Source: Clostridium sp. CAG:433
GTDB taxonomy: Bacteria > Bacillota_I > Bacilli_A > RF39 > UBA660
Reading direction: 5' to 3'
Assembly: GCA_000433675.1 (NCBI GenBank)
Contig: FR893564.1
Location: 52,660-116,659, forward strand
Length of the DNA: 64,000 bases
Within the stretch, counting starts at the first letter, position 1, and each line of letters opens with the position of its first letter. This document shows, piece after piece, positions 41,917-59,408 of this stretch. The position numbers and the translations under genes were made by a program. The notes beneath the pieces are model-generated. The model saw only the letters and a program-made list of their open reading frames with translations, was not told where the DNA came from and made no database searches.

Positions 41917-41951
41917 GATTTATAAGGGTTTTCTATAAATATGGTAGAACG

Positions 41952-41972
41952 CTACCCATCATCTACCCATCA
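41952..41972 (+). repeat. direct repeat (left att) of element 2
   Basis: CTACCCATCATCTACCCATCA; matches 53201-53221 with one mismatch. Confidence 0.7.
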
Positions 41973-42003
41973 TAATCTATGGTTTATATAAGTTTAATAT
42001 AGT

Positions 42004-43146
42004 TTATTTGGAAGACTTTTCATTAAAGTCTTTTTCTAATGTGTCAAAGAATTTTGGTACATTTGCAAGATCTTTTTTAAACATATGAGTATAAGTTTCT
42101 AGTGTTTCAGTAGTTTCAGAATGGCCTAAAAAGTTAGATACAGCAGTTATTGGAGCAGAGCCAGATATTAAGGCTGATGCACATGAATGTCTAAAGTCAT
42201 GTAATCTAATTCTTCTTACTCCAGCTTTTTCAGCATATTTATCTCTATAGAAATACATTCTACCTGTAGCCATTGGAACATCATCACCAAGTACAAACCA
42301 AGTTTGTTTGAATTTTGCTATTCGTTCATTTGATTTTTTTAGTTCTGCTAAGTCATTTAGTAGAGTAGTTGCGATTGGAATTGTTCTATTTGATGCTTCT
42401 GTTTTAGTGCTAGAAATATACCATTCTGTACTAGCATTAGAATTAGAGGGATTTAATACTTGTTGAGAAACAGTTAAAAGTTTATTTTTAAAGTCTATAT
42501 GTTTCCATTGTAATCCTCTTGCTTCAGACCTTCTTAATCCACAATAATATAATAATTCAAAGAAACATTTATATCTTAAATCATCAACTACTGAAATAAA
42601 TTTAAAGAATTCTTCAGGTTCGTAAAAATCCATTTCTTTCTTCAATGCCCCTGGAGTTTTAAAAGGCTCTAATTTATTATAAAATTTTCTTAAATTAAAA
42701 TCCCATTGTTTTTCAGCAAAGTTAATGACTTGCTTTATAAATTTTTGAATATCTGTTTTATATCTATCACAGAGATTTGTTTTATTAATTTGTGCTCTCC
42801 ATTTTTGATATAAATCCCAATCTAAGTTTACTAATTCTACATTATCTAGTAATCCCATATATTTGATTCTATCTCTATATGTCTTAAGAGTAGAATCTTT
42901 TATTTTATCTTTCTGATATTCATAATATATAGTGTAGGCTTCTTTAAATGTCATATGTGGATTTACTTCAACATCTTTATATTTATTTAAATATGCTTTT
43001 TCAGCCTGTATTGCTTCTTCTTCAGTCATATATGCTTGTGATTGATATTGATGTCTTTTACCATCTAAACCTTTACTATATTGTATAAATACCCAAGATC
43101 TTCCATCTTTTGTTATTTTATTTTCTTTAAGTTGTCTTACGGACAT
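42004..43146 (-). CDS. tyrosine integrase (phage-integrase family)
   Basis: C-terminal RLHDFRHSCAS…LGHSETTETLETYTHM catalytic motifs; 380 aa; adjacent to att repeat. Confidence 0.85.
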   Translation of the reverse strand: MSVRQLKENKITKDGRSWVFIQYSKGLDGKRHQYQSQAYMTEEEAIQAEKAYLNKYKDVEVNPHMTFKEAYTIYYEYQKDKIKDSTLKTYRDRIKYMGLLDNVELVNLDWDLYQKWRAQINKTNLCDRYKTDIQKFIKQVINFAEKQWDFNLRKFYNKLEPFKTPGALKKEMDFYEPEEFFKFISVVDDLRYKCFFELLYYCGLRRSEARGLQWKHIDFKNKLLTVSQQVLNPSNSNASTEWYISSTKTEASNRTIPIATTLLNDLAELKKSNERIAKFKQTWFVLGDDVPMATGRMYFYRDKYAEKAGVRRIRLHDFRHSCASALISGSAPITAVSNFLGHSETTETLETYTHMFKKDLANVPKFFDTLEKDFNEKSSK

Positions 43147-43294
43147 TTCATTCCTCCTTTTCTTATCCGTAAAATATCGACATACATCTATATTTTACCA
43201 TTTATTTATATATTTTTTTATATTTATCTTGTTTATCATTTTTTATTAAGAAAAAAGACCAACAATAGAGTTGATCTTTTAATAATTTGAAACG

Positions 43295-43879
43295 TTATTT
43301 TTTATTTTTGGTATTAATCTGTTTTTTTACATCTTCTTGCATTTTTATTAATTTATTGTGTACATATACATTAGCAATATCAATTTCTTCAGAATTTGGT
43401 GTTTTTAGTATTTTATCGCAGTTTGGACAATAATTTTGAGCAGTTCCATAATAATAATTTCCATAGGAACTTCTTTTAATTAATTCTCCTTTGCATTTGT
43501 TACATATTGGTCTAAAGTTTTTGATTGTTATTTCATTATATAACTCAGAGTAATTCCAAGCATATCTAATACCTTCATAAATATCATCATTATAATCTTC
43601 ATACCATTTTTTAATATTACTAGCATCGTTTATTTTAACAATAATTAATAAAATAGCAAATATTATTATACCTACTATTAACAATACCCATAATGGAATA
43701 TTAATATTAAGTATAAAAACGATACTATTGAATATCCATTTTAAAAAAGATAGTATTCCTTCTAATATGTTGATATCTTGTAGTTTAGAAGTTATTATTC
43801 CTCCAACTACAGTCACTATAACTGGTAATAAAAACCAAATCCAAATAGATTTAAAAATTTTTTTCATATGATAAATCAC
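43295..43879 (-). CDS. hypothetical membrane protein with C-terminal zinc ribbon
   Basis: Three predicted TM helices then CNKCKG…CPNCDK. Confidence 0.4.
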   Translation of the reverse strand: MIYHMKKIFKSIWIWFLLPVIVTVVGGIITSKLQDINILEGILSFLKWIFNSIVFILNINIPLWVLLIVGIIIFAILLIIVKINDASNIKKWYEDYNDDIYEGIRYAWNYSELYNEITIKNFRPICNKCKGELIKRSSYGNYYYGTAQNYCPNCDKILKTPNSEEIDIANVYVHNKLIKMQEDVKKQINTKNKK

Positions 43880-43911
43880 CTTTCGAAATGTTGTTTACAT
43901 AGATAATTATA

Positions 43912-45360
43912 TCATAATTCAAAGTCATCTGATTTATCTCGTTCATATTTTTTATTAACTTTTTTACTTAAATCTTTAAAAGCAGAGTAATCGTATTTCT
44001 GATTTTTATCAACATCAAATCCTAGCGTTCTTTTTAGTGCTTTATATAAATCTATTGCTATATTTTTAACATTACTAATAATTGTATCGATATTTTCTTT
44101 TAATTCAGTTAATTCATTTCTTAATGAACTAATTATTGTGTTTTGATATTTTATAGTATCATCTTTTTCTTTAATAATTAAATTTTGATTTTCGATTATT
44201 TTATCTTTTTCTATTAATGTTTTACCTGATTTAAGATTTTTAATTTCAGTATTTAATTTATCAATTTGTTTCTGTTTGGATTCTAATTTTATTTCATTTT
44301 GTTCTATTATTTTTGATTTATTCAAATTATCTTTAGTTATTTCTTTTGAGTATTTAGATAGATTATTTATATCTTTTTCTTTATATCCAATTATTTTGCT
44401 TTTTTCAGGATTTAGAAGAGGATTTGTATCTACATCAGATATTTTCTCTTTATATGATATTTCAACTTCATTTAGGGCTTTATTCTTATTTAATTCAAGT
44501 TCCATTAGTTTGTTTTCTTCCTGTAGTTCTTCTAAATATTTTTCTGCTTTTGTTTGATGATATTTATTTCCTCCAATTTGACCTCTATCAAGATTAAAAC
44601 CTTTAGATGTTATAAATTTATTATAATCATCTTGTATTTTAGCAAATGATGTTTTAAAGCCTTTATCCTTCCAAAACTGATCACAATTTAGAAATTTTCC
44701 TTTTTCTATTGAATATAAATTTTTACCGTTTTCATCTTTCTTTTGAATAGGTATTAACTTTTCTTTTCCGTCTTTTCCTATATAAGATTTTAATATTTGA
44801 TGACCATTACTATCTGTTTCAAATACTTTTCTATGAACTTCATTCACTACTGGAGTAAAATAAAAATGCATATGTGGAGTATCTTCATCAAAATGAATAG
44901 CAGAGTAGACTACGTTTTCCTTTCCAACTAAATTACTTAAAAATTCATGTGAATATTTAAAATAGTTTAATACTTGTTCTGGAATATCATTTGGATTATT
45001 AATAACTACTTTATTAATAGGTTCTCCTTTATGTTCTCCAGTTAAATATTTTCTTCCTGTATCTTCAAATTTCATTCCTAATGATTTAAAGAATTCTTGT
45101 CCACTTGTTATTATGCATCCATTTAATAAATTGATATTTTTGTTGCTCTTGTTAAATTCTACATTATTTTTATAGAGAGTTTTATATGTTGAACTAGCTA
45201 AATTAGTACTACATAATGGAATAAATTCAATGTTATATTTAGTTCTATTTGTATCATAATTACCTGTACCAATTCTATCAGTAAGTTCTTTACTAAGACC
45301 ACCAATATCTGAAGATTTAATTTTGTTTGTTATAGTTAAAACCTGTTTTCCATCAAACAT
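43912..45360 (-). CDS. MobV/Mob_Pre family relaxase (paralog of the 14978 gene)
   Basis: HFDEDTPHMHFYFTPVV motif III; coiled-coil C-terminus ending …DDFEL like the element-1 relaxase. Confidence 0.8.
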   Translation of the reverse strand: MFDGKQVLTITNKIKSSDIGGLSKELTDRIGTGNYDTNRTKYNIEFIPLCSTNLASSTYKTLYKNNVEFNKSNKNINLLNGCIITSGQEFFKSLGMKFEDTGRKYLTGEHKGEPINKVVINNPNDIPEQVLNYFKYSHEFLSNLVGKENVVYSAIHFDEDTPHMHFYFTPVVNEVHRKVFETDSNGHQILKSYIGKDGKEKLIPIQKKDENGKNLYSIEKGKFLNCDQFWKDKGFKTSFAKIQDDYNKFITSKGFNLDRGQIGGNKYHQTKAEKYLEELQEENKLMELELNKNKALNEVEISYKEKISDVDTNPLLNPEKSKIIGYKEKDINNLSKYSKEITKDNLNKSKIIEQNEIKLESKQKQIDKLNTEIKNLKSGKTLIEKDKIIENQNLIIKEKDDTIKYQNTIISSLRNELTELKENIDTIISNVKNIAIDLYKALKRTLGFDVDKNQKYDYSAFKDLSKKVNKKYERDKSDDFEL

Positions 45361-45625
45361 TTATATAAATCCTTTAATATATTTATGACATTGTGACATT
45401 AATAATATGTGTGGCTTTGAGGAATTGGTCATTTATGACCTATCTCACTAGGGCATAGCCCAAAAGTGAGTTAAGGGAATCCCTTAAAAACCCATTCTTG
45501 TTTAAGCAAAGACTTAAGGTGATTTAAGTCTAAGCAATAAACAAGTGATTATTTATTAAAAAATAAATAATCAGAAGATGAGCCATTATCGCCACTTTCA
45601 TTGCTACGCAACAAAACGTGCCACA
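45361..45625 (-). other. candidate oriT/promoter region upstream of relaxase
   Basis: Several short inverted repeats (CTCACT…AGTGAG; GACTTAA…TTAAGTC) in the 265-bp region 5' of the relaxase gene. Confidence 0.25.
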
Positions 45626-46582
45626 TTATTCATCTTCATTTTGTGAAGGCTCTATAAATGTAGCATGATATAATCTACTATCAGCAGTTCTACATTTAGT
45701 AATATGAACACCTTCACTTTCTAAAAGTTCAATACTATTATTTAGTAATCTTCCGAATCTTTTAGGTGACATTGGTATATTAGCTTTTAATACTATATCA
45801 GTACAGGTAAAATCAATTTCTTTTTGACTAGCAACATATTTTATAAACGATGTTAGTTCAAAAGATAATTCATCTTCCTCAATAGAATTTATTTTACGAA
45901 ATATAAGGTTATCTAATTTTTTTAATTGAATATCTATTTCTGAAAAATCTCTATTTATTGTTTGTAATTTAACATATTTTTTATTTGCTTTATTTTCAAT
46001 TAAAGTTATTCTTCCATCAACAGTTGCATCTAGTGCAATACTTCCTAATGTTTTACCGGTTTTATTTAGATGATGTGTAACTAAAAAAGTTACATTATAT
46101 TTATCACAATAAGTTCTTAATTTTGGAAATATTTGCTGTGATACATCTTGATAATTATTAATATCATATTGGACTCCAAAATCAATATCTTTTAACATAT
46201 CTAAAATTATAAGTTTGCCGTTATATTCTTCAGCAAATGTTTTTATATCATATTCTAAATCATTTAAAGATATATTTGCTTTATTCTGTCTATCAATTAT
46301 AAATAAAGAGTCTTTTTTTGCTGATAGTTCCATGAATTCTAGGCGTTCCTTTAATTGAATTTTATCTGATTCTGTGGTAACATATAAAACAGGTGAGGGA
46401 TTTACTTTGTATCCTAAAAATGGTGTTCCGTTAATAACGGAGCAGGAAAGTTGCAGTGCCAACATAGACTTTCCTACTTTTGGATTAGATACTAAGAGAT
46501 ACACACCTTTAGACTTCATTATATTATTTATGATGATGTCTTTTTTTATGTTTGTATCTATTTGTTCTATTGGTTTAAGCAA
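45626..46582 (-). CDS. RecA-fold ATPase (RepA/AAA_25-like)
   Basis: P-loop GVYLLVSNPKVGKSMLALQL; layout typical of mobile-element replication/primase-associated ATPases. Confidence 0.5.
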   Translation of the reverse strand: MLKPIEQIDTNIKKDIIINNIMKSKGVYLLVSNPKVGKSMLALQLSCSVINGTPFLGYKVNPSPVLYVTTESDKIQLKERLEFMELSAKKDSLFIIDRQNKANISLNDLEYDIKTFAEEYNGKLIILDMLKDIDFGVQYDINNYQDVSQQIFPKLRTYCDKYNVTFLVTHHLNKTGKTLGSIALDATVDGRITLIENKANKKYVKLQTINRDFSEIDIQLKKLDNLIFRKINSIEEDELSFELTSFIKYVASQKEIDFTCTDIVLKANIPMSPKRFGRLLNNSIELLESEGVHITKCRTADSRLYHATFIEPSQNEDE

Positions 46583-46829
46583 TTCTAATATCTCCTTTCA
46601 AATTTTTACTTTTTGACTCTAAATAGTCAATATCAATATTTAAATACTTAATAACTTCTTGCATAGGAACAGCATTCTTAGGAACATAATATCCTTCTTT
46701 TTCTAAGTCATTTTTAATTTTACTTTTAATAGCTAGTGCTGAATTTCTTCCTATGTTTGCTAATTTCATTAAATCTGATAAATTGCACCATTGTTGTGCG
46801 ATTAATTTTAAAGTTTCATCTACGGTCAT
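46575..46829 (-). CDS. hypothetical small protein (possible DNA-binding)
   Basis: 84 aa, overlaps start of ATPase gene by 8 nt. Confidence 0.3.
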   Translation of the reverse strand: MTVDETLKLIAQQWCNLSDLMKLANIGRNSALAIKSKIKNDLEKEGYYVPKNAVPMQEVIKYLNIDIDYLESKSKNLKGDIRIA

Positions 46830-46841
46830 ATTCCACCTCCT

Positions 46842-47174
46842 TTATCTTTCTAATTCTTTGTATTTCTTGTGTTTCAAATCAACTAAGTTTTTAAATTCAT
46901 CAGTTGGTTGTATTGAAACATTAAGACCAAGATATGAATCTTTATCTACACATTCTTCTAAATTATAAAAATGTGCATAATCATATTTTTCTAATTCTTT
47001 AGAACTTTTAATAGTTTCTTCTCTAGTATTTTGGTTTATTAATAATCTTCTAAGTGATTTAGTTAAGTCATAACAGATTAAACAATATAATCCTTTAGCA
47101 CTTAATGATAAATCAGGATTATCTAAAACATCTTTTCTTACTAAAGTGAAATATTTTTGATCCACTTTTAACAC
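46842..47174 (-). CDS. hypothetical small protein
   Basis: 110 aa; first gene of the leftward operon, divergent from the XRE gene. Confidence 0.3.
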   Translation of the reverse strand: MLKVDQKYFTLVRKDVLDNPDLSLSAKGLYCLICYDLTKSLRRLLINQNTREETIKSSKELEKYDYAHFYNLEECVDKDSYLGLNVSIQPTDEFKNLVDLKHKKYKELER

Positions 47175-47511: not shown

Positions 47512-48033
47512 ATGGCTAATAGTGATTTAAAAAATGTTATTGAGAATGCAAGAAAGGCACAAGGATATTCACAAAGACAATTAGCAAAACAAATAGGATT
47601 AAGTCAAAGTACATATAACGATACAATTAATGGAAAAATAAAAAAAGTTGATGTTGAGATTTTAAGAAAAATAGCAGAAGGCTTAAATCTTTCTTTAGAT
47701 TATTTATTAAAATTTTCTGGTTATGGTGATGTATATAGTTACATGAACGCCGAAAAATATTCAAATAAATCTACAAAAGATTTTGTTGAAATGTTAGACA
47801 AATATGAAAAATTTAAAATGGATATATTAGATTGGGATTATCAAAAAAGACAAAAGGCATTTGAGTTACAAGATTATATAAACAACATAAAAACTGAAAT
47901 AAGAATCATTTCAGCTGGAGGAGTTAGAAGAATGACTGATGAAGAACTTCTTCAAAATTTAGATGGAATGTATGAAATAACTAAGAAAATTGCTAAAAAG
48001 TATGATTATAGCAAATTACCGAAGGATTTATAG
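47512..48033 (+). CDS. XRE-family HTH transcriptional regulator
   Basis: HTH_3 motif SQRQLAKQIGLSQSTYNDTINGK. Confidence 0.7.
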   Translation: MANSDLKNVIENARKAQGYSQRQLAKQIGLSQSTYNDTINGKIKKVDVEILRKIAEGLNLSLDYLLKFSGYGDVYSYMNAEKYSNKSTKDFVEMLDKYEKFKMDILDWDYQKRQKAFELQDYINNIKTEIRIISAGGVRRMTDEELLQNLDGMYEITKKIAKKYDYSKLPKDL

Positions 48034-48044
48034 GAGGGTTAGTA

Positions 48045-48899
48045 ATGATAAAAGGAAAACCATTTGTAAAGTGGGCAGGTGGAAAAAGACAAATAATAGA
48101 TAAATTAAAAGAATATGTTCCATACGAGTTTAACACTTATTATGAACCATTTATAGGTGGTGGAGCATTATTATTTGAACTTTCACCTAAAAAAGCGGTT
48201 ATTAATGATTATAACAAAGAACTTATGAATGTATATGAATGTATTAAAGATGAAAAAAAATTCGAGGCAATGTGTAGAGAATTAAATCACCATGAAACTG
48301 AACATTCAGAAGAATACTATTATGAAGTTAGAAATATTGATAAAGATAAGAAGAAGTTTAATAAGTTAGCAGATTATAAAAGAGCAGCTCGTACTATTTA
48401 TTTAAATAAAGCTTGCTTTAACGGATTATATAGAGTTAATAGTAAAAATGAATTTAATGTACCATTTGGCAAGAAAACTAAAGTAAATACTTATGAAGGA
48501 CAAAATTTGGGTATTATATGTGGCTATTTAAATTATAATGACATTAAGTTATTATCAGTTGATTTTGAAGAGGCTGTAAAAGATGCCAAAAAAGGCGATT
48601 TTGTTTATTTTGATCCACCTTACGATTCTGATACTTCTACATTTAATAGTTATACTGAAGATGGTTTTGGAAAAGAAGAACAAAAAAGGCTTGCTAAAGT
48701 ATTTAAAGAATTATCTGATAGAGGATGCTATGTAATGCTTTCTAATCACAATACAACTTTAATAAATGAGTTATATAAAGATTTTCATATACATGTAATT
48801 GAGGCTAAAAGAAACATAAATGCTAATGGAAAGAAAAGGGGAAAAGTAGAAGAAGTTATTATAACAAACTTTGAAAATAAAAAAGGTTTTGAAGAATAG
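48045..48899 (+). CDS. Dam-family N6-adenine DNA methyltransferase (DpnM-like, GATC)
   Basis: FVKWAGGKRQ, YYEPFIGGGALLFEL, NGLYRVNSKNEFNVPFG, GDFVYFDPPY, YVMLSNHN…ELYKDFHIHVIEAKR – collinear with DpnM as recalled from memory; 284 aa. Confidence 0.85.
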   Translation: MIKGKPFVKWAGGKRQIIDKLKEYVPYEFNTYYEPFIGGGALLFELSPKKAVINDYNKELMNVYECIKDEKKFEAMCRELNHHETEHSEEYYYEVRNIDKDKKKFNKLADYKRAARTIYLNKACFNGLYRVNSKNEFNVPFGKKTKVNTYEGQNLGIICGYLNYNDIKLLSVDFEEAVKDAKKGDFVYFDPPYDSDTSTFNSYTEDGFGKEEQKRLAKVFKELSDRGCYVMLSNHNTTLINELYKDFHIHVIEAKRNINANGKKRGKVEEVIITNFENKKGFEE

Positions 48900-48915
48900 T
48901 TAAGGAGGTGGCAAT

Positions 48916-49683
48916 ATGTTTAAGAAACCATATTATGAAACAGATGGTTTTAAATTGATAAAAGGAGATTCATTTAAAGAATTAAAAAAGATTGAACCTA
49001 AATCAATAGACATGATTTTTGCAGATCCTCCTTATTTTTTATCTGGAGATGGTATAAGTTGTAGTGCAGGTAAAATGGTAAGTGTAAAAAAAGGTGAATG
49101 GGATGAAAAAATAAATATTGATAAAAAACATAAGTTTAATCGAAACTGGATTAAATTGTGTTACAATATTTTAAAAGATGAAGGAACAATATGGATTAGT
49201 GGAACAATGCATAATATTTACTCAATAGGTATGGCATTGGAACAAGAAGGCTTTAAAATAATAAATAATATAACTTGGAAAAAATTAAATCCACCACCGA
49301 ATATAAGCTGTCGTGCATTTGTTCACTCGACAGAAACAATTTTATGGGCAAAAAAAGATATTAAAAAAGCAAAACATAAATTTAATTATTCCTTGATGAA
49401 AGAGTTAAATGATAATAAACAAATGAAAGATGTTTGGGAGTCATCATTAACTAAACCTAGTGAGAAAAAACAAGGAAAACATCCAACTCAAAAACCTATT
49501 GCCATATTAGAAAGAATAATATTAGCATCTACAGATGAAGGAGATTTAATTTTAGATCCGTTTAATGGAAGTGGAACAACAGGAATTGTAGCGAATAAAT
49601 TAAATAGAAAATATATAGGAATAGAACAAGAAAAAGAATATTTAGATTTAACTATTAGAAGAAAGGAAGAAAATGATGAATAG
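48916..49683 (+). CDS. second N6/N4 DNA methyltransferase (DpnA-like, beta class)
   Basis: IFADPPYFLSGDG motif IV near the N-terminus, …HPTQKPIAILERII…, C-terminal FNGSGTTG (motif I). Confidence 0.8.
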   Translation: MFKKPYYETDGFKLIKGDSFKELKKIEPKSIDMIFADPPYFLSGDGISCSAGKMVSVKKGEWDEKINIDKKHKFNRNWIKLCYNILKDEGTIWISGTMHNIYSIGMALEQEGFKIINNITWKKLNPPPNISCRAFVHSTETILWAKKDIKKAKHKFNYSLMKELNDNKQMKDVWESSLTKPSEKKQGKHPTQKPIAILERIILASTDEGDLILDPFNGSGTTGIVANKLNRKYIGIEQEKEYLDLTIRRKEENDE

Positions 49684-50533
49684 AAATTTTAATGATTGGT
49701 TAAGTAAATTTAAAGCAAGTATTTCAAATTATAGTTATTATGTTGATTTTAACAAGATATATGGAAATGTAGACAAAATAAAAATTGAACTTAATATTTT
49801 AAATTCTTTAATTGGTAGTCAAAATATAGAAGAAGAATTTAGAAATATTATTTTTAAATATCCTGAAACATTGGAGTGTATTCCAGTTTTATTGGCAGTT
49901 AGATCAAATGAAATTTTTGTTAAAGATGAATTTGATGAATATTTATTCAAATTTAATAAAATGGTTTATTCAATTGATGATTATGTAAAATTCATGAAAG
50001 AAACTGGGTTATTTGATTTATTAGAAAATCATTTGATAAATAATTTATATGATTATGTTTTAGGTGTTGAAGTAGGCTTAGATTCAAATGGTAGAAAAAA
50101 TCGTGGTGGACATTTAATGGAAGATTTAGTAGAAAGTTATATTGTAAAAGCTGGATATGAAAAGAATGTTAATTATTTTAAAGAAATGTATTTAAGTGAC
50201 ATTGAAAAAAGATGGGGATTAGATTTATCTGCGATGTCTGGTGATAATACTTCTACAAAAAGATTTGATTTTGTTATTAAAACTGATAATCAGGTATATG
50301 TTATAGAAACTAATTTTTATGCTTCAGGTGGTTCGAAATTAAATGAAACAGCAAGAAGTTATAAAATGTTAGCAGAAGAATCAAAAAAAGTTGGTGGAGT
50401 AACATTTATATGGTTCACAGATGGAAAAGGTTGGAATAGTGCAAGAAAGAATCTTGAGGAAACATTTAATGAATTAGATACTTTATATTCAATAAATGAT
50501 TTGGAAAATGGTGTGTTAAATAATTTGGAGTGA
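49673..50533 (+). CDS. probable DpnII/MboI-like restriction endonuclease
   Basis: Third gene of a two-methylase cassette in the order of S. pneumoniae dpnM-dpnA-dpnB; 286 aa; overlaps upstream gene by 11 nt; no motif recognised by eye. Confidence 0.5.
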   Translation: MMNRNFNDWLSKFKASISNYSYYVDFNKIYGNVDKIKIELNILNSLIGSQNIEEEFRNIIFKYPETLECIPVLLAVRSNEIFVKDEFDEYLFKFNKMVYSIDDYVKFMKETGLFDLLENHLINNLYDYVLGVEVGLDSNGRKNRGGHLMEDLVESYIVKAGYEKNVNYFKEMYLSDIEKRWGLDLSAMSGDNTSTKRFDFVIKTDNQVYVIETNFYASGGSKLNETARSYKMLAEESKKVGGVTFIWFTDGKGWNSARKNLEETFNELDTLYSINDLENGVLNNLE

Positions 50534-50539
50534 TAAGCA

Positions 50540-52297
50540 GTGAATAATAGAATAATTAATAGTTATGTAGAAAATTTTTGTGGACAAAACGATTTTGATT
50601 CAAATAAATTTTTGTTATTTTCTACATATCAAATTTGTAAAAAACATAATTTAGATGAAAATATGTTAATTGATTGTGTTGTAGAAGGTGGAGGAGATGG
50701 TGGATTAGACTCTATTGTTGCATTAGTAGATAAAAAATATATATATTCTTTAGATGAATTTAATGAGTATGCTGAACAAATTAATGAAAACTCAAGAATA
50801 GATTTATACTTTATACAAGCAAAAGAAACAAATGGCATAAAAGAAACAGCATTTATGAAAATTAAAGATGTATTTGAAAAGTTGTTAGTTTCCAACAGTA
50901 TAACAGAAGAATTAAGAATACAATATAATCAAGTGTTAATAGAAAAATTCGAGTTAATAAATGAAATAATTATTAAATCATCTCCTAAAACAAATAATAT
51001 ATATATTAATGTTGCATATGCATATACAGGAAATTTAGATAAAGATAGTATTTCAATAGGAACTAAAAATCAAATTAATTCTATAAAAAAACTAGTTAGC
51101 GATACAACATATATAAATGAAGCAAATATATCCGTTGATATTTTTGATAGTAATAAATTAATTAACATAGCTAATAAAAGCATACAAAAAGATTATATAA
51201 TAAAATATAAAACGATTTTTAAAATGAATTATAGATCAGATAGTGAAAATGGTTTTGTTATGAATATGTCTATAAAGGATTATTATAATTTAATAACACA
51301 AGATAATGAAATTATCGATGTATTATTTGAAGGTAATATTCGTGATTTTGAAGGTCAAACAGTTGAGGTGAATAAAAATATAAAAAACACACTTGAAGAA
51401 GTTTATGATGCAGATTTTTGGTGGCTAAATAACGGCATAACTATGATAGTTGATTCGTATACTCCATTGCCAAATGATAGTGCGAAGGTTGTAAATCCTA
51501 TAATAGTTAATGGACTTCAAACTTCATATACAATATTTAATTATTTTAAAGAAAATATTGATAAGCTAGAAAATGAAGACAGAAACATATTACTTAAAAT
51601 AGTTAATACTGATAGCATAAATATCTCTGATATGATTATATCATCAACAAATAGGCAAAATGCTGTTAAACCAGCACAACTAAAAGCTACAGATCCGATA
51701 CAAAAAGACATAGAACAATTATTGTTGAAAAATGGTATATATTATGAAAGAAGAAAAAATTATTATAAAAACAGAGGAATTGATAAACATAAAATAGTGA
51801 CATTAGAAAACTTAGCTCAATATCTAGAATCAATTTATTATGGTAATTGCAGTGGAGCACGTAATAATCCAACTACATTATTAAAAAGTGAAAAACTTTA
51901 TAACAAATTATTTAATAATAGTATAAATCCTAATATATATACTATAACATCTGAAGTCGCTCTAAAAACATTAGAATGTTTAAGAAAAATCAAAAAAAAT
52001 AATGATGATATTTTTAACAAAAAACATTCTGTTTCATTAGATATATTTAAATTTTATATTATGAGAATGATTGTATTATGTTTATGTGGTAACAACATAA
52101 GTGAAAACTACTTAGAAATAGATTTAGAAAAAATAGATTATGATTTAACAGTAAATATTATTAATAAATTAGAATCTATAGTATCAGATATAAAAGATGA
52201 TAACGATAATATCATTAATATTTCTAAATCAAAAGAATTAGATAATAAAATTAATTCAGAAGATTTGTCTGAAATATGCTTAAAAGTAACTACTTAA
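50540..52297 (+). CDS. AIPR-like abortive-infection protein
   Basis: N-terminal VVEGGGDGGLDSIVAL resembling the AIPR GDGG(I/L)D signature; 585 aa; directly downstream of an RM cassette. Confidence 0.5.
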   Translation: MNNRIINSYVENFCGQNDFDSNKFLLFSTYQICKKHNLDENMLIDCVVEGGGDGGLDSIVALVDKKYIYSLDEFNEYAEQINENSRIDLYFIQAKETNGIKETAFMKIKDVFEKLLVSNSITEELRIQYNQVLIEKFELINEIIIKSSPKTNNIYINVAYAYTGNLDKDSISIGTKNQINSIKKLVSDTTYINEANISVDIFDSNKLINIANKSIQKDYIIKYKTIFKMNYRSDSENGFVMNMSIKDYYNLITQDNEIIDVLFEGNIRDFEGQTVEVNKNIKNTLEEVYDADFWWLNNGITMIVDSYTPLPNDSAKVVNPIIVNGLQTSYTIFNYFKENIDKLENEDRNILLKIVNTDSINISDMIISSTNRQNAVKPAQLKATDPIQKDIEQLLLKNGIYYERRKNYYKNRGIDKHKIVTLENLAQYLESIYYGNCSGARNNPTTLLKSEKLYNKLFNNSINPNIYTITSEVALKTLECLRKIKKNNDDIFNKKHSVSLDIFKFYIMRMIVLCLCGNNISENYLEIDLEKIDYDLTVNIINKLESIVSDIKDDNDNIINISKSKELDNKINSEDLSEICLKVTT

Positions 52298-52351
52298 TAA
52301 CATATATGTATATAATGTCATAATGTCATTAGTTAAAAAATATTAGGAGGT

Positions 52352-53026
52352 TTGGATATGAAAATGAGAAGTCAAATTATAATTGATTTAATTAATAATA
52401 AAATAAATATTACTCAAGCTATGGATACTTTAAAAATATTATTAAATGATATAGACAATCCAGAAATTAAAAATTGGTTGCTAAAAGAAATTGACGGTTA
52501 TAATCAAGATGATGATATTCCAAAATATAGAATTGTTCCAGCAACTATCACTGGAGAATATCTTGCAAGTTATGGAAGGATTCATGCAAAAAAACACCCA
52601 ATACCTATCGATCCACAATATATAGCTGATTGGAATTCAGTAAAAATTTTTGCTGGAATAAATGAAATATACCAATTTTCATTAGCAGAACAAAAAGAAG
52701 ACAGTCATCACTTATCAATATCATTACATCCAGTTTTAGTCAATCAAATAGCAATGATCGATGGCGAAGTGTTAGAAGCACATCAAGATTTATCAATTTA
52801 TGCTTATACTAATATAATAGGAAAATTAAAAGAAATAATACTTGATATTTTATTAAAATTAGAAAAAGAATATGGAAATTTAGATAGCTATTATATTGAA
52901 TTTGAGAATGATGAAAAAGAAAAGCAAACAATAAATTATATTATTAGCATAATAGACAATTCAATTAAATTTGGAGATAAGAATACTATAAAAAATTCTA
53001 ATATTGGTGATGAAAATGAAAATTAA
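52352..53026 (+). CDS. hypothetical protein (possible Abi-associated component)
   Basis: 224 aa; RBS AGGAGG; last protein-sized gene before right att. Confidence 0.4.
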   Translation: MDMKMRSQIIIDLINNKINITQAMDTLKILLNDIDNPEIKNWLLKEIDGYNQDDDIPKYRIVPATITGEYLASYGRIHAKKHPIPIDPQYIADWNSVKIFAGINEIYQFSLAEQKEDSHHLSISLHPVLVNQIAMIDGEVLEAHQDLSIYAYTNIIGKLKEIILDILLKLEKEYGNLDSYYIEFENDEKEKQTINYIISIIDNSIKFGDKNTIKNSNIGDENEN

Positions 53027-53183
53027 AATTGGAAAGAAAAATAAATTTAAAAATGTAAATATGGGTAATAACAATATAATTAACGAAGATAAAAACAATA
53101 AATCAAATATTATCATAGATATAATTGTCGGAATAATAGTTGCAGTTATTGGAGCTATAATTATAAAATTGTTAAAAATATAA
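53016..53183 (+). CDS. small membrane peptide (55 aa), translationally coupled
   Basis: ATG at 53016 overlaps the stop region of the upstream ORF; MKIKIGKKNKFKNVNMGNNNIINEDKNNKSNIIIDIIVGIIVAVIGAIIIKLLKI has a C-terminal TM helix; below the size cutoff of the ORF track. Confidence 0.4.
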   Translation: MKIKIGKKNKFKNVNMGNNNIINEDKNNKSNIIIDIIVGIIVAVIGAIIIKLLKI

Positions 53184-53200
53184 ATAGCTGACAAGTATTT

Positions 53201-53221
53201 CTACCCATCAGCTACCCATCA
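53201..53221 (+). repeat. direct repeat (right att) of element 2
   Basis: CTACCCATCAGCTACCCATCA. Confidence 0.7.
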
Positions 53222-53293
53222 AATTCATGTAAATTTATCAATTTTTGATTAAATTTTATTAAACTTAAAATGAGTTATATGTCGATATTACGT

Positions 53294-53317
53294 GGCTTTT
53301 CAACAAGCCTCTTTTTT
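53294..53317 (+). terminator. rho-independent terminator
   Basis: GGCTT-ttcaaca-AAGCC followed by TCTTTTTT. Confidence 0.6.
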
Positions 53318-53327
53318 AATATAATAG

Positions 53328-53360
53328 CCCCCTGAAGAGAGCGAAAGCTCTCATTTTTTT
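53328..53360 (+). terminator. rho-independent terminator (CCCCCTGAAG-type)
   Basis: CCCCCTGAAG AGAGC-gaa-AGCTCTC ATTTTTTT. Confidence 0.7.
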
Positions 53361-53547
53361 ATTTAATTTATTTGTGAAAAATTGAAATAAATTGTTTTTT
53401 ATAAAAATGACTTTTATAAATTATATTATTTATTTTAGACAAGTTATTGCTGATTTACAAATATTATTATACATTAAAGTCAGAAAGTATATACCTATTA
53501 TGGCTTTGGGAATTATGGTATAATTAATTTGTATTGAAGGTGATAAA

Positions 53548-53994
53548 ATGTTGAATATGTCAAATAGTGAACAAAAAAATGTAAATAGTGAAAATAATAC
53601 ATTAATTATAAATAATAAAAATTATGAAATAGATAAAATAGAAATCTGTGGTAAATACAATATTGAATTAGTAACTAAAAATTCAAATATAACATTATAT
53701 CTAGATTTAAATAAAGACGTTATTGCCTCATTAGTTTTAAATGAAAAAACTAATATTTCTGATAAAATAAGTAAAGACCAAAATATAAAAATAGAAAATA
53801 TTAGTTATACATTTTATATTGAAAATGAATTATATATAACAAAAATAAATGATAATGGGTATAAAATTGAATTATCAATGCCTAATATAGAATTATTAAT
53901 TCCGCCATTTGATGAAATAAATAAATCAAGAAATGATACTAATAAATCATTTTTAAAAAATATTTACTTAAATGTCGTTATTGAATTAAAATAA
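53548..53994 (+). CDS. hypothetical protein
   Basis: 148-aa N/K-rich ORF upstream of the Type IIG RM gene. Confidence 0.35.
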   Translation: MLNMSNSEQKNVNSENNTLIINNKNYEIDKIEICGKYNIELVTKNSNITLYLDLNKDVIASLVLNEKTNISDKISKDQNIKIENISYTFYIENELYITKINDNGYKIELSMPNIELLIPPFDEINKSRNDTNKSFLKNIYLNVVIELK

Positions 53995-54190
53995 AAATAT
54001 AAATAAATCAAAAATTTATACTTGATAATCTTTATGTTCAAAATTTTAAGTGGTATAATAAAACTATACTTTTTTCTTAGAAATATAGTTTTTATATAAA
54101 AATAAAAAGTAGTTGATATAAAGTGAATTTAAGTAACTAAATGTAGATTCATAAAAAATATAAGATAAACAATCAGTTAGGAGTACAGAC

Positions 54191-56926
54191 ATGAACATAT
54201 TAGATTTAATCGATTATTTAAAAAAAATGGGTTATAAATTTCACAATTTAGATACAAATGAACCTTTTTTAAAAATAAATGGAACAAAAATTATTTTTAA
54301 TATAGTTAATAAAAAATATAAAGTAGAGGGTATTTCTGTAGGACATGAAAGAATCCTAGATTTAACAAGGCCTGAAAATTACAGCGTTGTAATGTTTTTG
54401 ATAAAACTATTAAAAAAAGGTTATTCGAAAAATGTAATTTCATTAGAAAAAAGGTGGCAATTAGGACATAATGATAGTGGATCACTTGATGTTATGTTAA
54501 AAAATCCTATTAATAATGATATTTACATGATAGAAATAAAATCTCAATCAGAAATAAATAAATACGTAAATTTAAATAACGAAAAAAAATTAAAACAAGT
54601 TTTTTCTTATGCAATTCAGGAAAAAACAACTAAAATAATATCTTTTTATTCTTATGATTTTTCTGAAAATAAGGATATGTTTTACAATGTATATACAGAA
54701 GATATATTAAAAGAATCCCAAAATGTAGATGACTTTTTTGAAAGATGGAATAAAGTATTTGATAAAAGCGATTATATTTCTAATAACAAAATATTTAATT
54801 CAAGACAATCAGTTAAAAAATATAGTCAATTAGAGAATATTACAAATAATGATACAAAAACCTTATTTAATCAATTTGCGACAATATTAAGATTACATTC
54901 TATTTCTGATAAGCCCAATGCTTTTATTAAGATGATTAATTTGTTTTTGGCTAAAATAAATGATGAAATTACATCTGATAAAAAATTTGAAGTAAAGGAT
55001 AATGCAGGAAATATACATACTTTAAATGGTATGAAGTTCCAATATATTAGGGGTATAGATACTCCAGTATCTTTTATGAAAAGACTTAATGAGTTATATA
55101 AAGAAGGAATGAAAGAATACTTAAATAAAGATGTAATTGATTATAATGATGAAGAAATCGATGATTTATTACCAGACAATGTAGAAAATAGAAAACTTAT
55201 TGTAGAAACATTTGATAATCTAAGACTTAAGAAAAATAATAATTTTACATTTATTGATGTATTTGATGATGAAACATTCTATCTTAATTTTGAGGTTGTA
55301 AAAAGTGTTGTTGAACTTCTTGAAAATTATAGATTTAAGTATGATACGAAACATCAATTTTTAGGAGACTTTTTTGAAGAATTATTAAATACCAGTTTAA
55401 AACAAGAAGCTGGTCAGTTCTTTACACCTTATCCAATTGTTGATTTTATGGTTGATTCATTACCATATGAAAAACTTATTAAGAAGAATGTAGATTTAGG
55501 AAGAATTAATTTTATCCCTTCTGTTATCGATTATGCGTGTGGAGCAGGACACTTTTTAATAAGCAGTATGGCAAAAACACAAGAAATAATTAAAAAAATG
55601 AAAAATGAAAATTATAATTTTAACGAATTACAAACTAAAAAAATAAATGCATATATTGATGATCCATATTCATGGGTAAACAAAAGAAATTGTGTTGGAA
55701 TTGAAAAGGATTACAGACTTGCCAAAACAACTAAAATAGCAACGTTTCTTAATGGAGATGGTAATGCTGAAATAATTAGTGGAGACGGAATTAACAAATT
55801 TAATTCTAAGGATTATGAAAATACAATTTTAAATTCAAGTAAAAATAAAATTGAAAAGTTTGATTTTGTTATATCAAATCCACCATATTCAATAGATGGA
55901 TTTATGAGAAATTTTTCAAAGAATGGAATTACTCCAGAATCAGGCGATTTTTCATTATTAAAAAAATTAAATTATACAGATTCTGCAATAGAAACATTTT
56001 TTGTTGAAAGAACAGAACAACTTTTAGTTAATAATGGATATTGTGCAATTGTATTGCCACAATCTATTCTATCAAATTCAAAATATGAAAATATGAGAAG
56101 ATTCATGTTTAAAAATTTTGAAATAAAAGCTTTAGTTATGACATCAGATATTACTTTTTCAGGAACAACAACATCACCAGTTATATTATTTTTAAAGAAG
56201 ACAAAAGTACCAAATAAGCATTACAAAACATTAGTAGTAGGATCACCAAAATACATGAAACCAACTGGAAGTAAAATGAAAGATCAGGAAATTAAATTTC
56301 TTGGTTATGAATTTAGTACAAATAGGGCAAAGTCAGGAATTACTATAAAAGATAATTCAATATTATCAAAAATATCACCTATAATAAATAATTTTATTTC
56401 TAACGATGAAATAAATATACCTAAAAATTTATCTAATTTAGTGTATAGTAAATATTTTGATGATATATTATTAAATTCTTCTAAAGAATATTGCGGAGAT
56501 ATATATCCAAAATATAATCTTAATGAGGGTAAACCATTATCTAATTATTGCAAGATTAATTGTAGAACAACAGAGGATTTCGATAAAATGCCATCTGATT
56601 ATCTTGAAATAGGGGGCTTATCTACATTACAAACTAGTGAAAAAAAGAAAACAACTAATAGATTCTGCAAAAAAGGTGATATTCTAGTCTCTAGTTTATG
56701 TCCAAAAAGAAATCAAATTAAAATAGCAGATAAAGATTATATGGTTACAACAGCAATACATGTATTATCTGATTTTGAAAGTGAAGAGATAAAAGAAAAA
56801 ATTTATGAAAAAATTAGATCTGATGAAGTTTTAGAACAAATGAATTCTTTACTTGATGGTTTTAAAATCACTTATGCTAAAATTTCAGATGCAAATTTAA
56901 TTAATAATATATTAATTAATATATAA
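54191..56926 (+). CDS. Type IIG restriction-modification enzyme (fused PD-(D/E)xK nuclease plus gamma-class N6-adenine methyltransferase plus target-recognition domain)
   Basis: N-terminal D…EIK (SLDVMLKN…IYMIEIKSQ), GQFFTPYPIVDFMV, VIDYACGAGHFLIS (motif I), FVISNPPYS (motif IV), about 340-aa C-terminal region; 911 aa. Confidence 0.7.
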   Translation: MNILDLIDYLKKMGYKFHNLDTNEPFLKINGTKIIFNIVNKKYKVEGISVGHERILDLTRPENYSVVMFLIKLLKKGYSKNVISLEKRWQLGHNDSGSLDVMLKNPINNDIYMIEIKSQSEINKYVNLNNEKKLKQVFSYAIQEKTTKIISFYSYDFSENKDMFYNVYTEDILKESQNVDDFFERWNKVFDKSDYISNNKIFNSRQSVKKYSQLENITNNDTKTLFNQFATILRLHSISDKPNAFIKMINLFLAKINDEITSDKKFEVKDNAGNIHTLNGMKFQYIRGIDTPVSFMKRLNELYKEGMKEYLNKDVIDYNDEEIDDLLPDNVENRKLIVETFDNLRLKKNNNFTFIDVFDDETFYLNFEVVKSVVELLENYRFKYDTKHQFLGDFFEELLNTSLKQEAGQFFTPYPIVDFMVDSLPYEKLIKKNVDLGRINFIPSVIDYACGAGHFLISSMAKTQEIIKKMKNENYNFNELQTKKINAYIDDPYSWVNKRNCVGIEKDYRLAKTTKIATFLNGDGNAEIISGDGINKFNSKDYENTILNSSKNKIEKFDFVISNPPYSIDGFMRNFSKNGITPESGDFSLLKKLNYTDSAIETFFVERTEQLLVNNGYCAIVLPQSILSNSKYENMRRFMFKNFEIKALVMTSDITFSGTTTSPVILFLKKTKVPNKHYKTLVVGSPKYMKPTGSKMKDQEIKFLGYEFSTNRAKSGITIKDNSILSKISPIINNFISNDEINIPKNLSNLVYSKYFDDILLNSSKEYCGDIYPKYNLNEGKPLSNYCKINCRTTEDFDKMPSDYLEIGGLSTLQTSEKKKTTNRFCKKGDILVSSLCPKRNQIKIADKDYMVTTAIHVLSDFESEEIKEKIYEKIRSDEVLEQMNSLLDGFKITYAKISDANLINNILINI

Positions 56927-58817: not shown

Positions 58818-59408
58818 ATGGAAAATAAAACAAGCGCTATTAACATACAAGTAGATAGTAATGTAAAAAAAGAAGCAACAGACGTATTAACTGAACTTGG
58901 TTTATCAATGAGTTCTGCAATAAATTTATTTTTAAAACAAGTTGTTAAAAAAAATGGTATTCCATTTGAAATAACTAATGTATCACCTAAGAAAAAAATA
59001 CTAGATGTTGTGTGTGGATTAATTATGAAAGATGGGAAATGCTTAATTGCACAAAGAAAAAAAGAGGATCATTTATATGGTAAATGGGAATTTCCAGGTG
59101 GAAGAAGAGTAGGTCTTGAAGATGAAAAGAAAACTCTTGATAGAGCATTTACTGAAGTACTTGGAATTAATACAAAAATAAATGATTATATTACACATAG
59201 TATATGTGAATATCCAGGTCATATAGTAGACTTAAAATTATATGAATGTGATTATATAAGTGGTGATTTTAAATTAAATATTCATTCAGATTATAAATGG
59301 GTAGCAATTGAAGAACTATTAGATTATGATTTAGCAGATGCAGACGTTATCTTAACTAAATTCTTAATAAAAAAATATATAGAAGATGCTAAAGAAAATA
59401 ATAAATAA
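58818..59408 (+). CDS. RelB/DinJ antitoxin-like domain fused to MutT/NUDIX-like domain
   Basis: N-terminal INIQVDSNVKKEATDVLTELGLSMSSAINLFLKQVV (DinJ/RelB ribbon-helix-helix type); GKWEFPGGRRVGLEDEKKTLDRAFTEVLGI matches the MutT Nudix box but with RAF…EV in place of REL…EE. Confidence 0.55.
   Translation: MENKTSAINIQVDSNVKKEATDVLTELGLSMSSAINLFLKQVVKKNGIPFEITNVSPKKKILDVVCGLIMKDGKCLIAQRKKEDHLYGKWEFPGGRRVGLEDEKKTLDRAFTEVLGINTKINDYITHSICEYPGHIVDLKLYECDYISGDFKLNIHSDYKWVAIEELLDYDLADADVILTKFLIKKYIEDAKENNK

What the first reader, a model, noticed from the sequence alone, without database searches (positions are those of the whole stretch)
50540..53183. AIPR-like gene, then a 224-aa unknown gene, then an overlapping 55-aa membrane peptide: candidate three-gene abortive-infection module
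Directly after the RM cassette comes a 585-aa protein with an N-terminal GGGDGGLD motif resembling the AIPR abortive-infection family. Next is a 224-aa protein of unknown function with a strong RBS. A 55-aa ORF follows; it was missed by the ORF track because it is under 60 aa. Its ATG overlaps the preceding stop region, and it encodes a basic N-terminus plus a single C-terminal TM helix (IIIDIIVGIIVAVIGAIIIKLL). Small membrane-depolarising peptides are recurrent effectors of Abi and toxin systems. The tight coupling suggests that the 224-aa protein and the peptide work together, possibly as a sensor-effector or toxin-immunity pair, downstream of or with AIPR.
Basis: partly seen in the sequence, partly recalled or inferred. 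Interest (0 to 1): 0.65.

Follow-up and report, generated by a model that had tools for sequence, protein, structure and literature searches.

The report
AbiU plus a split AbiT-like pair
The three genes are real, but they are two neighbouring anti-phage systems: a known single-gene AbiU, and an AbiT-like pair whose second gene is a conserved, unannotated 55-residue membrane peptide that shares a short motif with its partner.

Summary
All three ORFs exist as described.

- **585-aa protein:** a full-length AbiU (AIPR family).
- **"Unknown" 224-aa protein:** an AbiTii-domain protein, the larger component of the lactococcal two-gene AbiT abortive-infection system.
- **55-aa ORF (53016-53183):** a real gene. 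All 17 distinct relatives of this AbiTii (43-51% identical) carry it with the same 11-nt overlap and a Shine-Dalgarno site. dN/dS is 0.2-0.55.
- **AbiU link:** AbiU is adjacent only in the source genome, so the three-gene module is not supported. The conserved unit is AbiTii plus peptide.

Across the AbiTii family the same peptide type (motif φxφG[DN]xNxφxNSxφ[G/A], linker, one TM helix) lies downstream, lies upstream, or is replaced by a TM helix fused to AbiTii. The motif also ends AbiTii itself. AlphaFold2 predicts both copies as disordered.

My best reading: AbiTii is a cytosolic sensor joined through the shared motif to a tail-anchored membrane effector or anchor. That makes this a minimal AbiT variant with the gene order I recall for abiTi-abiTii reversed. 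An amyloid-like (RHIM/BASS-type) signalling mechanism is a lead only. Homology to lactococcal AbiTi could not be tested.

The parts
50540..52297 (+). abiU-like gene (585 aa, AIPR family). A separate single-gene Abi system that starts 6 nt after the DpnII endonuclease stop.
   Evidence: Pfam AIPR 1.1e-35. PADLOC AbiU 9e-131, residues 2-573 on model positions 2-532 of 537. PHROG 'Abi alpha-like' 1e-40. Adjacent to AbiTii only in the source genome.
52345..52350 (+). Shine-Dalgarno AGGAGG for abiTii, 7 nt before ATG 52358.
   Evidence: Sequence read.
52358..53026 (+). AbiTii-domain gene (222 aa from ATG 52358; 224 aa from TTG 52352). Globular alpha+beta domain plus a flexible C-terminal tail.
   Evidence: Pfam AbiTii 2.8e-27 and PADLOC AbiTii 1.8e-26. 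AlphaFold2 pLDDT 91, pTM 0.83, tail residues 203-224 at pLDDT about 50. 1698 representative clusters in the family at E<=1e-3.
52964..53008 (+). Tail motif of AbiTii, IKFGDKNTIKNSNIG (pattern phi-x-phi-G-[DN]-x-N-x-phi-x-N-S-x-phi-G).
   Evidence: G208, N211 and I213 are nearly invariant in 66 diverse family members. The motif is present in 115 of 135 full-length representatives that lack a TM helix. The peptide HMM hits this tail.
53006..53010 (+). Shine-Dalgarno-like GGTGA for the peptide gene. It lies inside the last codons of abiTii.
   Evidence: Homologs have GGAGA or GGTGA at the same distance from the ATG.
53016..53183 (+). Gene for a 55-aa tail-anchored membrane peptide (AbiTi-like partner). 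It overlaps abiTii by 11 nt (53016-53026).
   Evidence: The same 11-nt overlap is found in all 17 distinct clade members. dN/dS 0.19-0.56. An HMM built only from the upstream-order clade finds it as the best of 308 window ORFs, E=4e-4. 531 clusters of 53-87-aa relatives, with no Pfam family and no functional name among the 120 best listed.
53022..53066 (+). N-terminal motif of the peptide, IKIGKKNKFKNVNMG. Same pattern as the AbiTii tail, 9 of 15 residues identical.
   Evidence: Predicted unstructured in the monomer, pLDDT about 50.
53109..53174 (+). Transmembrane helix IIIDIIVGIIVAVIGAIIIKLL, with conserved small residues (G39, A43, G46/A47).
   Evidence: Kyte-Doolittle maximum 3.08. AlphaFold2 helix 26-54, pLDDT 89-97. 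Alignments.
53294..53360 (+). Two intrinsic-terminator-like hairpins (GGCTTTTCAACAAGCC+T-run; GAGAGCGAAAGCTCTC+T-run) that end the transcription unit.
   Evidence: 9 terminator-like sites against 1.1 expected in shuffles. No such site lies between 47500 and 53290 on the + strand.

Best explanation
Two independent abortive-infection systems sit side by side at the 3' end of a DpnII restriction-modification operon, on an integrative mobilisable element.

**System 1** is AbiU, a single AIPR-family protein.

**System 2** is a two-gene AbiT-like system.
- The second gene is translationally coupled to it and encodes a 55-aa tail-anchored peptide: the same Asn/Gly-rich motif at its N-terminus, a linker, then one TM helix.

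**Proposed mechanism**
- The two copies of the motif pair as beta-strands and join AbiTii to the membrane peptide.
- AbiTii senses a phage cue.
- The membrane component then oligomerises through its small-residue face and compromises the membrane, aborting infection.

**Relation to AbiT.** The peptide is the functional counterpart of AbiTi, reduced to motif plus TM helix and placed after abiTii. From memory, the lactococcal order is abiTi then abiTii.

**Shown by computation:** family assignments, conservation of the peptide, the overlap, the shared motif, gene-order permutation and fusions, and the independence of AbiU.

**Inferred:** the sensor role of AbiTii, the effector role of the peptide, motif-mediated association, and any phage-resistance phenotype.
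For: **Family assignment:**

**The peptide is a real, coupled gene**
- 17 of 17 distinct members of this clade have it with an 11-nt overlap and a Shine-Dalgarno site.
- It is under purifying selection.

**Functional linkage (Rosetta-stone evidence)**
- A large clade of about 245-aa proteins, plus scattered others, carries a C-terminal TM helix fused to AbiTii.
- One such fusion is the last gene of a type I RM operon and has no small partner.

**Permuted gene order**
- In the clade sampled by the FGNLDDL pattern scan (AbiTii representatives 27-33% identical to the window's) a homologous 67-68-aa peptide lies immediately upstream.
- Starting from the peptide side, the Bacillus thuringiensis homolog lies just downstream of AbiTii and the Clostridium perfringens homolog just upstream.

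**Larger partners:** some partners of 240-250 aa end in the same motif plus a TM helix.

**Shared motif**
- It is present in both proteins.
- Both copies are predicted disordered in the monomer.
- Four of the seven TM-fused proteins among the top 150 representatives lack the tail motif, and no motif was read in the tails of the ~245-aa fused clade.

**Literature**
- AbiTii occurs N-terminal to HEPN effector domains (PMC3710099).
- C. catus AbiTi is toxic in E. coli (PMC3985639).
- AbiT is a two-component system whose phage escape mutations map to the major capsid protein and to hypothetical proteins (PMC13064643).
- From my own memory of Bouchard et al. 2002: AbiTi is 127 aa and its C-terminal hydrophobic region is essential.

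**AbiU is separate:**
Against: - No experiment exists on this clade.
- The lactococcal AbiTi sequence could not be obtained, so homology of the peptide to canonical AbiTi is untested.
- No PADLOC model matched the peptides.
- The 2026 review assigns lactococcal AbiTi an endoribonuclease-like fold. This peptide is too small to hold one.
- Some family members end in a basic amphipathic tail instead of a TM helix. That fits membrane targeting as well as it fits a pore-forming effector.
- Support for pair-specific co-variation of the motif is weak: permutation p=0.16 in this clade and 0.016 in the others.
- All genes from 47512 to 53183 may be one transcript. Regulatory coupling with AbiU and the RM cassette is therefore not excluded.
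Confidence: 0.68

Rival explanations
1. One reading: one integrated three-gene Abi module in which AIPR/AbiU works with the 224-aa protein and the peptide.
For: The genes are adjacent on one strand. Only 54-60 nt separate abiU from abiTii, depending on the start used, and no terminator lies between them. The arrangement is kept in the 99%-identical source MAG.
Against: AbiU is absent from the flanks of every other AbiTii-plus-peptide locus searched (L001-L060). Neighbours there include integrases, T4SS coupling proteins, RM genes and a KAP NTPase. The review of lactococcal Abi systems treats AbiU as a single-component system.
Confidence: 0.06
2. The peptide is only a passive membrane anchor. 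AbiTii itself acts at the membrane, for example on phage DNA entry, replication or assembly complexes, and no membrane damage is involved.
For: The family reaches the membrane in interchangeable ways: a separate TM peptide, a fused TM helix, or a basic amphipathic tail. From the review's table, lactococcal AbiT affects phage DNA replication and capsid-protein synthesis.
Against: C. catus AbiTi alone is toxic in E. coli. Elsewhere the AbiTii domain is a module N-terminal to enzymatic effectors (HEPN), which fits a sensor or adaptor better. The AbiTii model shows no fold similarity to any solved enzyme.
Confidence: 0.22
3. A toxin-antitoxin pair: the peptide is a holin-like or type-I-like membrane toxin that AbiTii holds in check until phage infection.
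For: It is a small hydrophobic peptide. There are weak sub-threshold Pfam hits of relatives to the LydA holin family (E about 0.01). The genes are tightly coupled.
Against: AbiTii of C. catus showed no antitoxicity towards AbiTi. Natural single-chain AbiTii-TM fusions are hard to reconcile with a toxin and a separable antitoxin. Rfam detects no antisense RNA family here.
Confidence: 0.08
4. The two ORFs are one protein: a programmed +1 ribosomal frameshift near the abiTii stop yields an AbiTii-TM fusion like the natural fusions.
For: Fused homologs exist. L020 shows an in-frame junction through the repeated motif. The overlap sequence is A-rich and conserved.
Against: The ATG and an upstream Shine-Dalgarno site are conserved in every clade member. 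A frameshift would not require them. The motif is duplicated on both sides of the junction. In other clades the peptide is encoded upstream of abiTii, where fusion by frameshift is impossible.
Confidence: 0.04

Closest known systems
AbiT of Lactococcus lactis pED1 (AbiTi 127 aa + AbiTii 213 aa; Bouchard et al. 2002)
   Same: Both are two-gene systems. Both have an AbiTii-domain protein (Pfam and PADLOC). Both have a small partner with a C-terminal hydrophobic segment. The lactococcal genes are putatively transcribed as a bicistronic operon.
   Different: The gene order is the reverse of the abiTi-then-abiTii order I recall (abiTii then peptide, 11-nt overlap). The partner is only 55 aa, a motif plus a TM helix. 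It has no room for the globular, reportedly endoribonuclease-like part assigned to lactococcal AbiTi. Sequence homology to AbiTi is untested.
AbiU (AbiUi/AbiU1) of Lactococcus lactis LL51-1, AIPR family PF10592
   Same: The 585-aa protein matches the PADLOC AbiU model end to end (9e-131) and carries the AIPR domain.
   Different: It comes from an uncultured gut Firmicutes MAG, not Lactococcus. No AbiU2 (HEPN) gene follows it. It is fused transcriptionally to a DpnII RM cassette.
Single-chain AbiTii-TM proteins (about 245 aa) and AbiTii-HEPN fusions (c2405 and Ymh families; Anantharaman et al. 2013)
   Same: All share the same N-terminal AbiTii domain followed by an effector or targeting element. 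The TM juxtamembrane sequence of some separate peptides (EKWYQKLMWQIIIPVIV, L055) resembles that of the fusions (PWYSKIAWNIVIPIIT).
   Different: Here the membrane element is a separate polypeptide, and the linking motif is duplicated on both chains.
Amyloid-signalling gene pairs: E. coli Bab/Agp (BASS11), bacterial Bell/NLR BASS1-10, fungal HET-S/NWD2, metazoan RHIM
   Same: The products of adjacent genes carry the same short Gly/Asn-rich motif, at the C-terminus of one and the N-terminus of the other. One partner targets the membrane and the outcome is abortive infection or cell death. The pattern phi-x-phi-G-[DN]-x-N-x-phi matches the RHIM description: GVQVGD in RIP3, then a conserved Asn, a variable residue and an apolar residue. 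Some family members begin MGIQIG.
   Different: There is no NLR/STAND or Bell/HeLo partner. The central Gln of G-phi-Q-phi-G is not conserved; the window has SIKFG and KIKIG. The motif is shorter, about 15 aa. No fibril or prion data exist. BASS motifs were reported mainly in multicellular Actinobacteria and Cyanobacteria.

Membership tests
AbiU / AIPR (PF10592) | AIPR domain above Pfam's gathering score | tested here: met
   124.2 bits against a cut-off of 25, residues 263-553.
AbiU / AIPR (PF10592) | Full-length similarity to lactococcal-type AbiU (about 590 aa) | tested here: met
   PADLOC AbiU 9e-131, covering 2-573 of 585 aa and 2-532 of 537 model positions.
AbiU / AIPR (PF10592) | Confers abortive phage resistance as a single gene | not testable with these tools
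   Needs cloning and phage challenge. Literature only.
AbiT (two-component) | AbiTii-domain protein | tested here: met
   Pfam PF18864 at 96.6 bits against a cut-off of 27.6. PADLOC AbiTii 1.8e-26.
AbiT (two-component) | Adjacent, co-transcribed small partner with a C-terminal hydrophobic region | tested here: met
   55-aa ORF with an 11-nt overlap and a TM helix at residues 32-53, conserved in the whole clade.
AbiT (two-component) | Partner is a sequence homolog of lactococcal AbiTi | not testable with these tools
   The AbiTi sequence was not retrievable: the paper is not held and no canonical abiT was found in PLSDB. No PADLOC model hit the peptides at E<=10.
AbiT (two-component) | Gene order abiTi then abiTii (order recalled from memory of Bouchard et al. 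2002) | tested here: not met
   The order here is abiTii then peptide. The abiTi-first order is found in other clades, including C. perfringens.
AbiT (two-component) | Abortive-infection phenotype that requires both genes | not testable with these tools
   Needs an experiment.
Amyloid signalling motif pairs (BASS / RHIM-like) | The same short motif at the C-terminus of one protein and the N-terminus of the product of the adjacent gene | tested here: met
   15-residue motif, 9 of 15 identical in the window and a mean of 57% identical over 29 pairs. Both copies are disordered in monomer models.
Amyloid signalling motif pairs (BASS / RHIM-like) | G-phi-Q-phi-G core (RHIM, PP, BASS3) | tested here: not met
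   The window has S-I-K-F-G and K-I-K-I-G. Only some relatives have G-I-Q-I-G. Core definition taken.
Amyloid signalling motif pairs (BASS / RHIM-like) | An NLR/STAND-type receptor on one side and a Bell/HeLo-type executioner on the other | tested here: not met
   [not shown]
Amyloid signalling motif pairs (BASS / RHIM-like) | Motif peptides form amyloid fibrils and template each other | not testable with these tools
   Needs ThT or EM on synthetic peptides, or foci assays.
Type I toxin / holin-like small membrane toxins | Small membrane peptide with an antisense RNA antitoxin, or a role in phage lysis | tested here: inconclusive
   The peptide has a TM helix. Rfam finds no RNA family in 50000-54300. 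Holin family hits are sub-threshold and only in relatives.

The most novel reading that the evidence does not exclude
The AbiT family may be a widespread Firmicutes abortive-infection system that signals through a paired RHIM/BASS-like beta-motif. The disordered Asn/Gly-rich tail of the AbiTii sensor would template or co-assemble with the identical motif at the N-terminus of a tail-anchored TM peptide. That would drive cooperative oligomerisation of the TM helices and membrane failure. It would be a minimal bacterial analogue of HET-S/NWD2, RIPK1/RIPK3 and Bab/Agp amyloid signalling, without any NLR.
Probability: 0.2. Interest if true: 0.8.

Novelty: new variant of a known kind. Interest (0 to 1): 0.5.

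Why it matters
AbiT was described in 2002 and, per the 2026 review's table, its effect on the host cell is still unknown.

- **Annotation.** The membrane partner belongs to a small-protein family of at least 531 clusters. Among the 120 best matches listed it has no Pfam family and is named only 'hypothetical protein'. It lies on either side of abiTii or is replaced by a fused TM helix. An annotation tool that requires a canonical AbiTi match next to AbiTii would score such loci as incomplete.
- **Mechanism.** The family-wide picture gives a concrete, testable model: AbiTii tail motif, the same motif on the partner, and a membrane helix. It also supplies a very small model system of about 222 aa plus 55 aa.
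- **Wider reach.** If the shared motif works by beta-templating, amyloid-type immune signalling would extend to common gut and pathogenic Firmicutes such as Clostridium perfringens and the Bacillus cereus group.

Tried and rejected
**Retrieving canonical lactococcal AbiTi failed**
- Bouchard 2002 is not held.
- tblastn of three AbiTii proteins against PLSDB found no canonical abiT. It found a 299-aa Lactococcus AbiTii fusion and an E. faecium AbiTii with a 192-aa partner that has an N-terminal TM helix.
- A literature search for the hydrophobic-region result returned nothing.

**Locus searches**
- The viral-contig scan found no relatives.

**Family and structure searches with no useful hit**
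- PADLOC, Pfam and NCBIfam gave no significant family for the peptide.
- Rfam found nothing credible in 50000-54300.
- Foldseek against the PDB gave nothing for AbiTii, best E 0.48.

**Other**
- A search for att-type direct repeats flanking the island found nothing convincing.
- The motif co-variation test was only marginal.
- I rejected the three-gene module, a chance ORF and a frameshift fusion.
Full report
**1. Observation**

The window is very AT-rich, about 24% G+C. On the + strand, three genes sit directly after a DpnII restriction-modification cassette. That cassette is an HTH gene at 47512-48033, DpnM-like and DpnA-like methylases, and DpnII at 49673-50533.

- A 585-aa ORF at 50540-52297.
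- A 224-aa ORF at 52352-53026. The better start is ATG 52358, 7 nt after AGGAGG.
- A small ORF ending at 53183.

With ATG 53016 the small ORF encodes 55 aa and overlaps the previous stop by 11 nt. GGTGA lies 5 nt upstream. Two terminator-like hairpins follow at 53294-53360.

**2. What the proteins are**

The 585-aa protein carries the AIPR domain (1.1e-35). It matches the PADLOC AbiU model over its full length (9e-131).

The 224-aa protein is not unknown. It is an AbiTii-domain protein (Pfam PF18864 2.8e-27; PADLOC 1.8e-26). AbiTii is the larger component of the lactococcal two-gene AbiT system.

The peptide matches no Pfam, NCBIfam, PADLOC or PHROG family at a meaningful level.

**3. Is the peptide a gene?**

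Relatives of this AbiTii, 43-51% identical, were found in metagenome assemblies and in 11 MAGs of uncultured gut Bacilli and Firmicutes. One of them, L009, is 99% identical and is evidently the source genome.

Every one of the 17 distinct members has a 51-58-aa ORF that overlaps the abiTii stop by exactly 11 nt. Each has a conserved ATG and an SD-like GGAGA or GGTGA.

The peptides align as MK[IV]x[IL]GxxNKIxNSNIG, a polar linker, then a TM helix with conserved small residues. Pairwise dN/dS is 0.19-0.56 at dS 0.7-2.9. AlphaFold2 gives one confident helix at residues 26-54 and an unstructured N-terminus.

The strongly conserved GENNEN* end of AbiTii is probably dual-coding, because it holds the peptide's SD and ATG.

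**4. Is it a three-gene module?**

No. A phmmer search with this AbiU against ORFs of 60 aa or more in all the AbiTii-bearing loci held at that point (L001-L060) hit only L009.

The flanks of the AbiTii-plus-peptide pair differ from place to place. They include integrases, T4SS coupling protein genes, type I or II RM genes and a KAP NTPase.

The review of lactococcal Abi systems treats AbiU as a single-component system (PMC13064643). The three genes may share a transcript with the RM cassette, but the conserved functional unit is the pair.

**5. The family-wide picture**

An exhaustive profile search found 1698 representative clusters of AbiTii proteins at E<=1e-3. Most are 215-235 aa. Nearly all end in the motif phi-x-phi-G-[DN]-x-N-x-phi-x-x-S-x-phi, and G208, N211 and I213 are nearly invariant.

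The membrane element takes several forms:

- (a) **Upstream peptide.** In a clade sampled by the FGNLDDL pattern scan, whose AbiTii representatives are 27-33% identical to the window's, a 67-68-aa peptide lies immediately upstream, with its stop overlapping the abiTii ATG. It has the same N-terminal motif and a TM helix. From memory, abiTi-first is the lactococcal order.
- (b) **Downstream peptide.** This is the arrangement in the present clade, in L055 and in Bacillus thuringiensis.
- (c) **Fused TM helix.** A populous clade of about 245 aa has the TM helix fused to AbiTii. Four of the seven TM-fused proteins among the top 150 representatives lack the tail motif, and I read no motif in the tails of the ~245-aa clade. 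One such protein ends a type I RM operon and has no small partner.
- (d) **Larger partners.** Some partners are 240-250-aa proteins ending in tandem motif copies plus a TM helix. An E. faecium plasmid has a 192-aa partner with an N-terminal TM helix.
- (e) **Other endings.** Some members end in a basic amphipathic tail, or are fused to HEPN domains (PMC3710099).

An HMM built only from upstream-order peptides picks the window's peptide as the best of 308 window ORFs (E=4e-4). It also touches the AbiTii tail.

A profile of the peptides retrieves 531 clusters of 53-87 aa. Among the 120 best listed, none has a Pfam family and the only names are 'hypothetical protein'. They include Clostridium perfringens and the Bacillus cereus group, and they lead back to abiTii neighbours.

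Tallying the distinct AbiTii genes in the fetched loci gives 17 with the peptide downstream, 15 with it upstream, 4 matched only within the AbiTii ORF itself (one fused protein, one remnant and two loci cut at a contig end), and 7 with another partner, a fragment or none. The sampling was targeted, so these counts are not frequencies.

**6. Structure**

AbiTii folds confidently, with pLDDT 91 and pTM 0.83. It forms an alpha+beta globule over residues 1-202, and the motif-bearing tail is disordered.

**7. Mechanism (inference)**

The AbiTii domain behaves as an N-terminal sensor or adaptor module attached to varied effectors (PMC3710099). Escape mutants of lactococcal phages map to the major capsid protein and to hypothetical proteins.

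C. catus AbiTi alone is toxic in E. coli, and AbiTii does not neutralise it (PMC3985639). From memory, the hydrophobic C-terminus of lactococcal AbiTi is essential (Bouchard 2002).

I therefore propose that AbiTii is tied to the tail-anchored peptide through pairing of the two identical, intrinsically disordered motifs. A phage cue sensed by AbiTii would then lead to oligomerisation of the TM helices and membrane failure. A purely anchoring role for the peptide is the main rival.

**8. A more novel lead**

Adjacent genes that share a short Gly/Asn-rich motif, at the C-terminus of one product and the N-terminus of the other, are the hallmark of amyloid signalling pairs. Examples are fungal HET-S/NWD2, the bacterial BASS families, and the E. 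coli Bab/Agp Abi system.

The present motif fits the RHIM description phi-x-phi-G-[AD]-x-N-x-phi, and some relatives begin MGIQIG. Three things argue against membership: the central Gln is not conserved, no NLR or Bell domain is present, and pair-specific co-variation is marginal. This is a hypothesis for experiment, not a classification.

**9. Verdict**

The AbiU and AbiTii assignments are routine. The peptide is a real, conserved gene missing from the functional annotation I could consult. The locus is a minimal variant of AbiT with the recalled gene order reversed. The shared-motif and membrane-partner rule across the family appears not to have been described in the literature I could search, where only three papers mention AbiTii.

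Noticed in passing
window 39821-47174: Directly after recG (39821-41779) lie a tyrosine integrase (42004-43146, -), a Mob_Pre relaxase (43912-45360, -) and an AAA_25/RepA-like ATPase (45626-46582, -). The defence genes therefore look like cargo of an integrative mobilisable element. No flanking att repeats were found.
   Followed up: partly
window 47512-50533: A complete DpnII-type cassette: an HTH (controller-like) gene, a D12-class methylase, an N6_N4 methylase and the DpnII endonuclease. abiU starts 6 nt after the endonuclease stop, with its SD inside the DpnII coding end.
   Followed up: partly
window 53548-56926: After the terminators comes a 148-aa ORF with no family match (53548-53994), then a 911-aa type IIG restriction-methyltransferase (PADLOC 4.5e-112). 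This is a third or fourth defence system in the island.
   Followed up: no
L020 3808-4318: A remnant in an uncultured Bacilli MAG. A serine-recombinase fragment is joined to the C-terminal third of AbiTii, whose tail motif runs in frame straight into the peptide's linker and TM helix. It looks like a deletion between the two motif copies, and shows how split and fused forms can interconvert.
   Followed up: partly
window 53006-53026 and the homologous sites in L001-L019: The nearly invariant GENNEN* end of AbiTii in this clade coincides with the SD (GGAGA/GGTGA), spacer and ATG-AAA of the peptide gene. This is a dual-coding constraint rather than a protein-level one.
   Followed up: partly
[not shown]
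   Followed up: no
L058 3116-3868; L060 1892-2614: Inside RM operons, AbiTii is followed by 240-250-aa proteins with an unknown N-terminal domain. They carry several tandem copies of the motif (VDNSVHGN VDNSIHVEN VDNRISIGDGNTINSSVIGNDN) and a C-terminal TM helix.
   Followed up: no
L054 3120-3698 (E. faecium pDY32-optrA) and L051 3102-3686: A different partner class. This 192-194-aa protein has an N-terminal TM helix and overlaps the 3' end of a motif-less 206-208-aa AbiTii.
   Followed up: no
window 53180-53219: An imperfect inverted repeat starts at the peptide's stop codon (AGCTGA...TCAGCT). It was scored as terminator-like on the minus strand only. Its function is unknown.
   Followed up: no
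window 58818-59408: A 196-aa ORF combines a RelB antitoxin domain with a NUDIX hydrolase domain. This is an unusual fusion and lies outside the finding.
   Followed up: no
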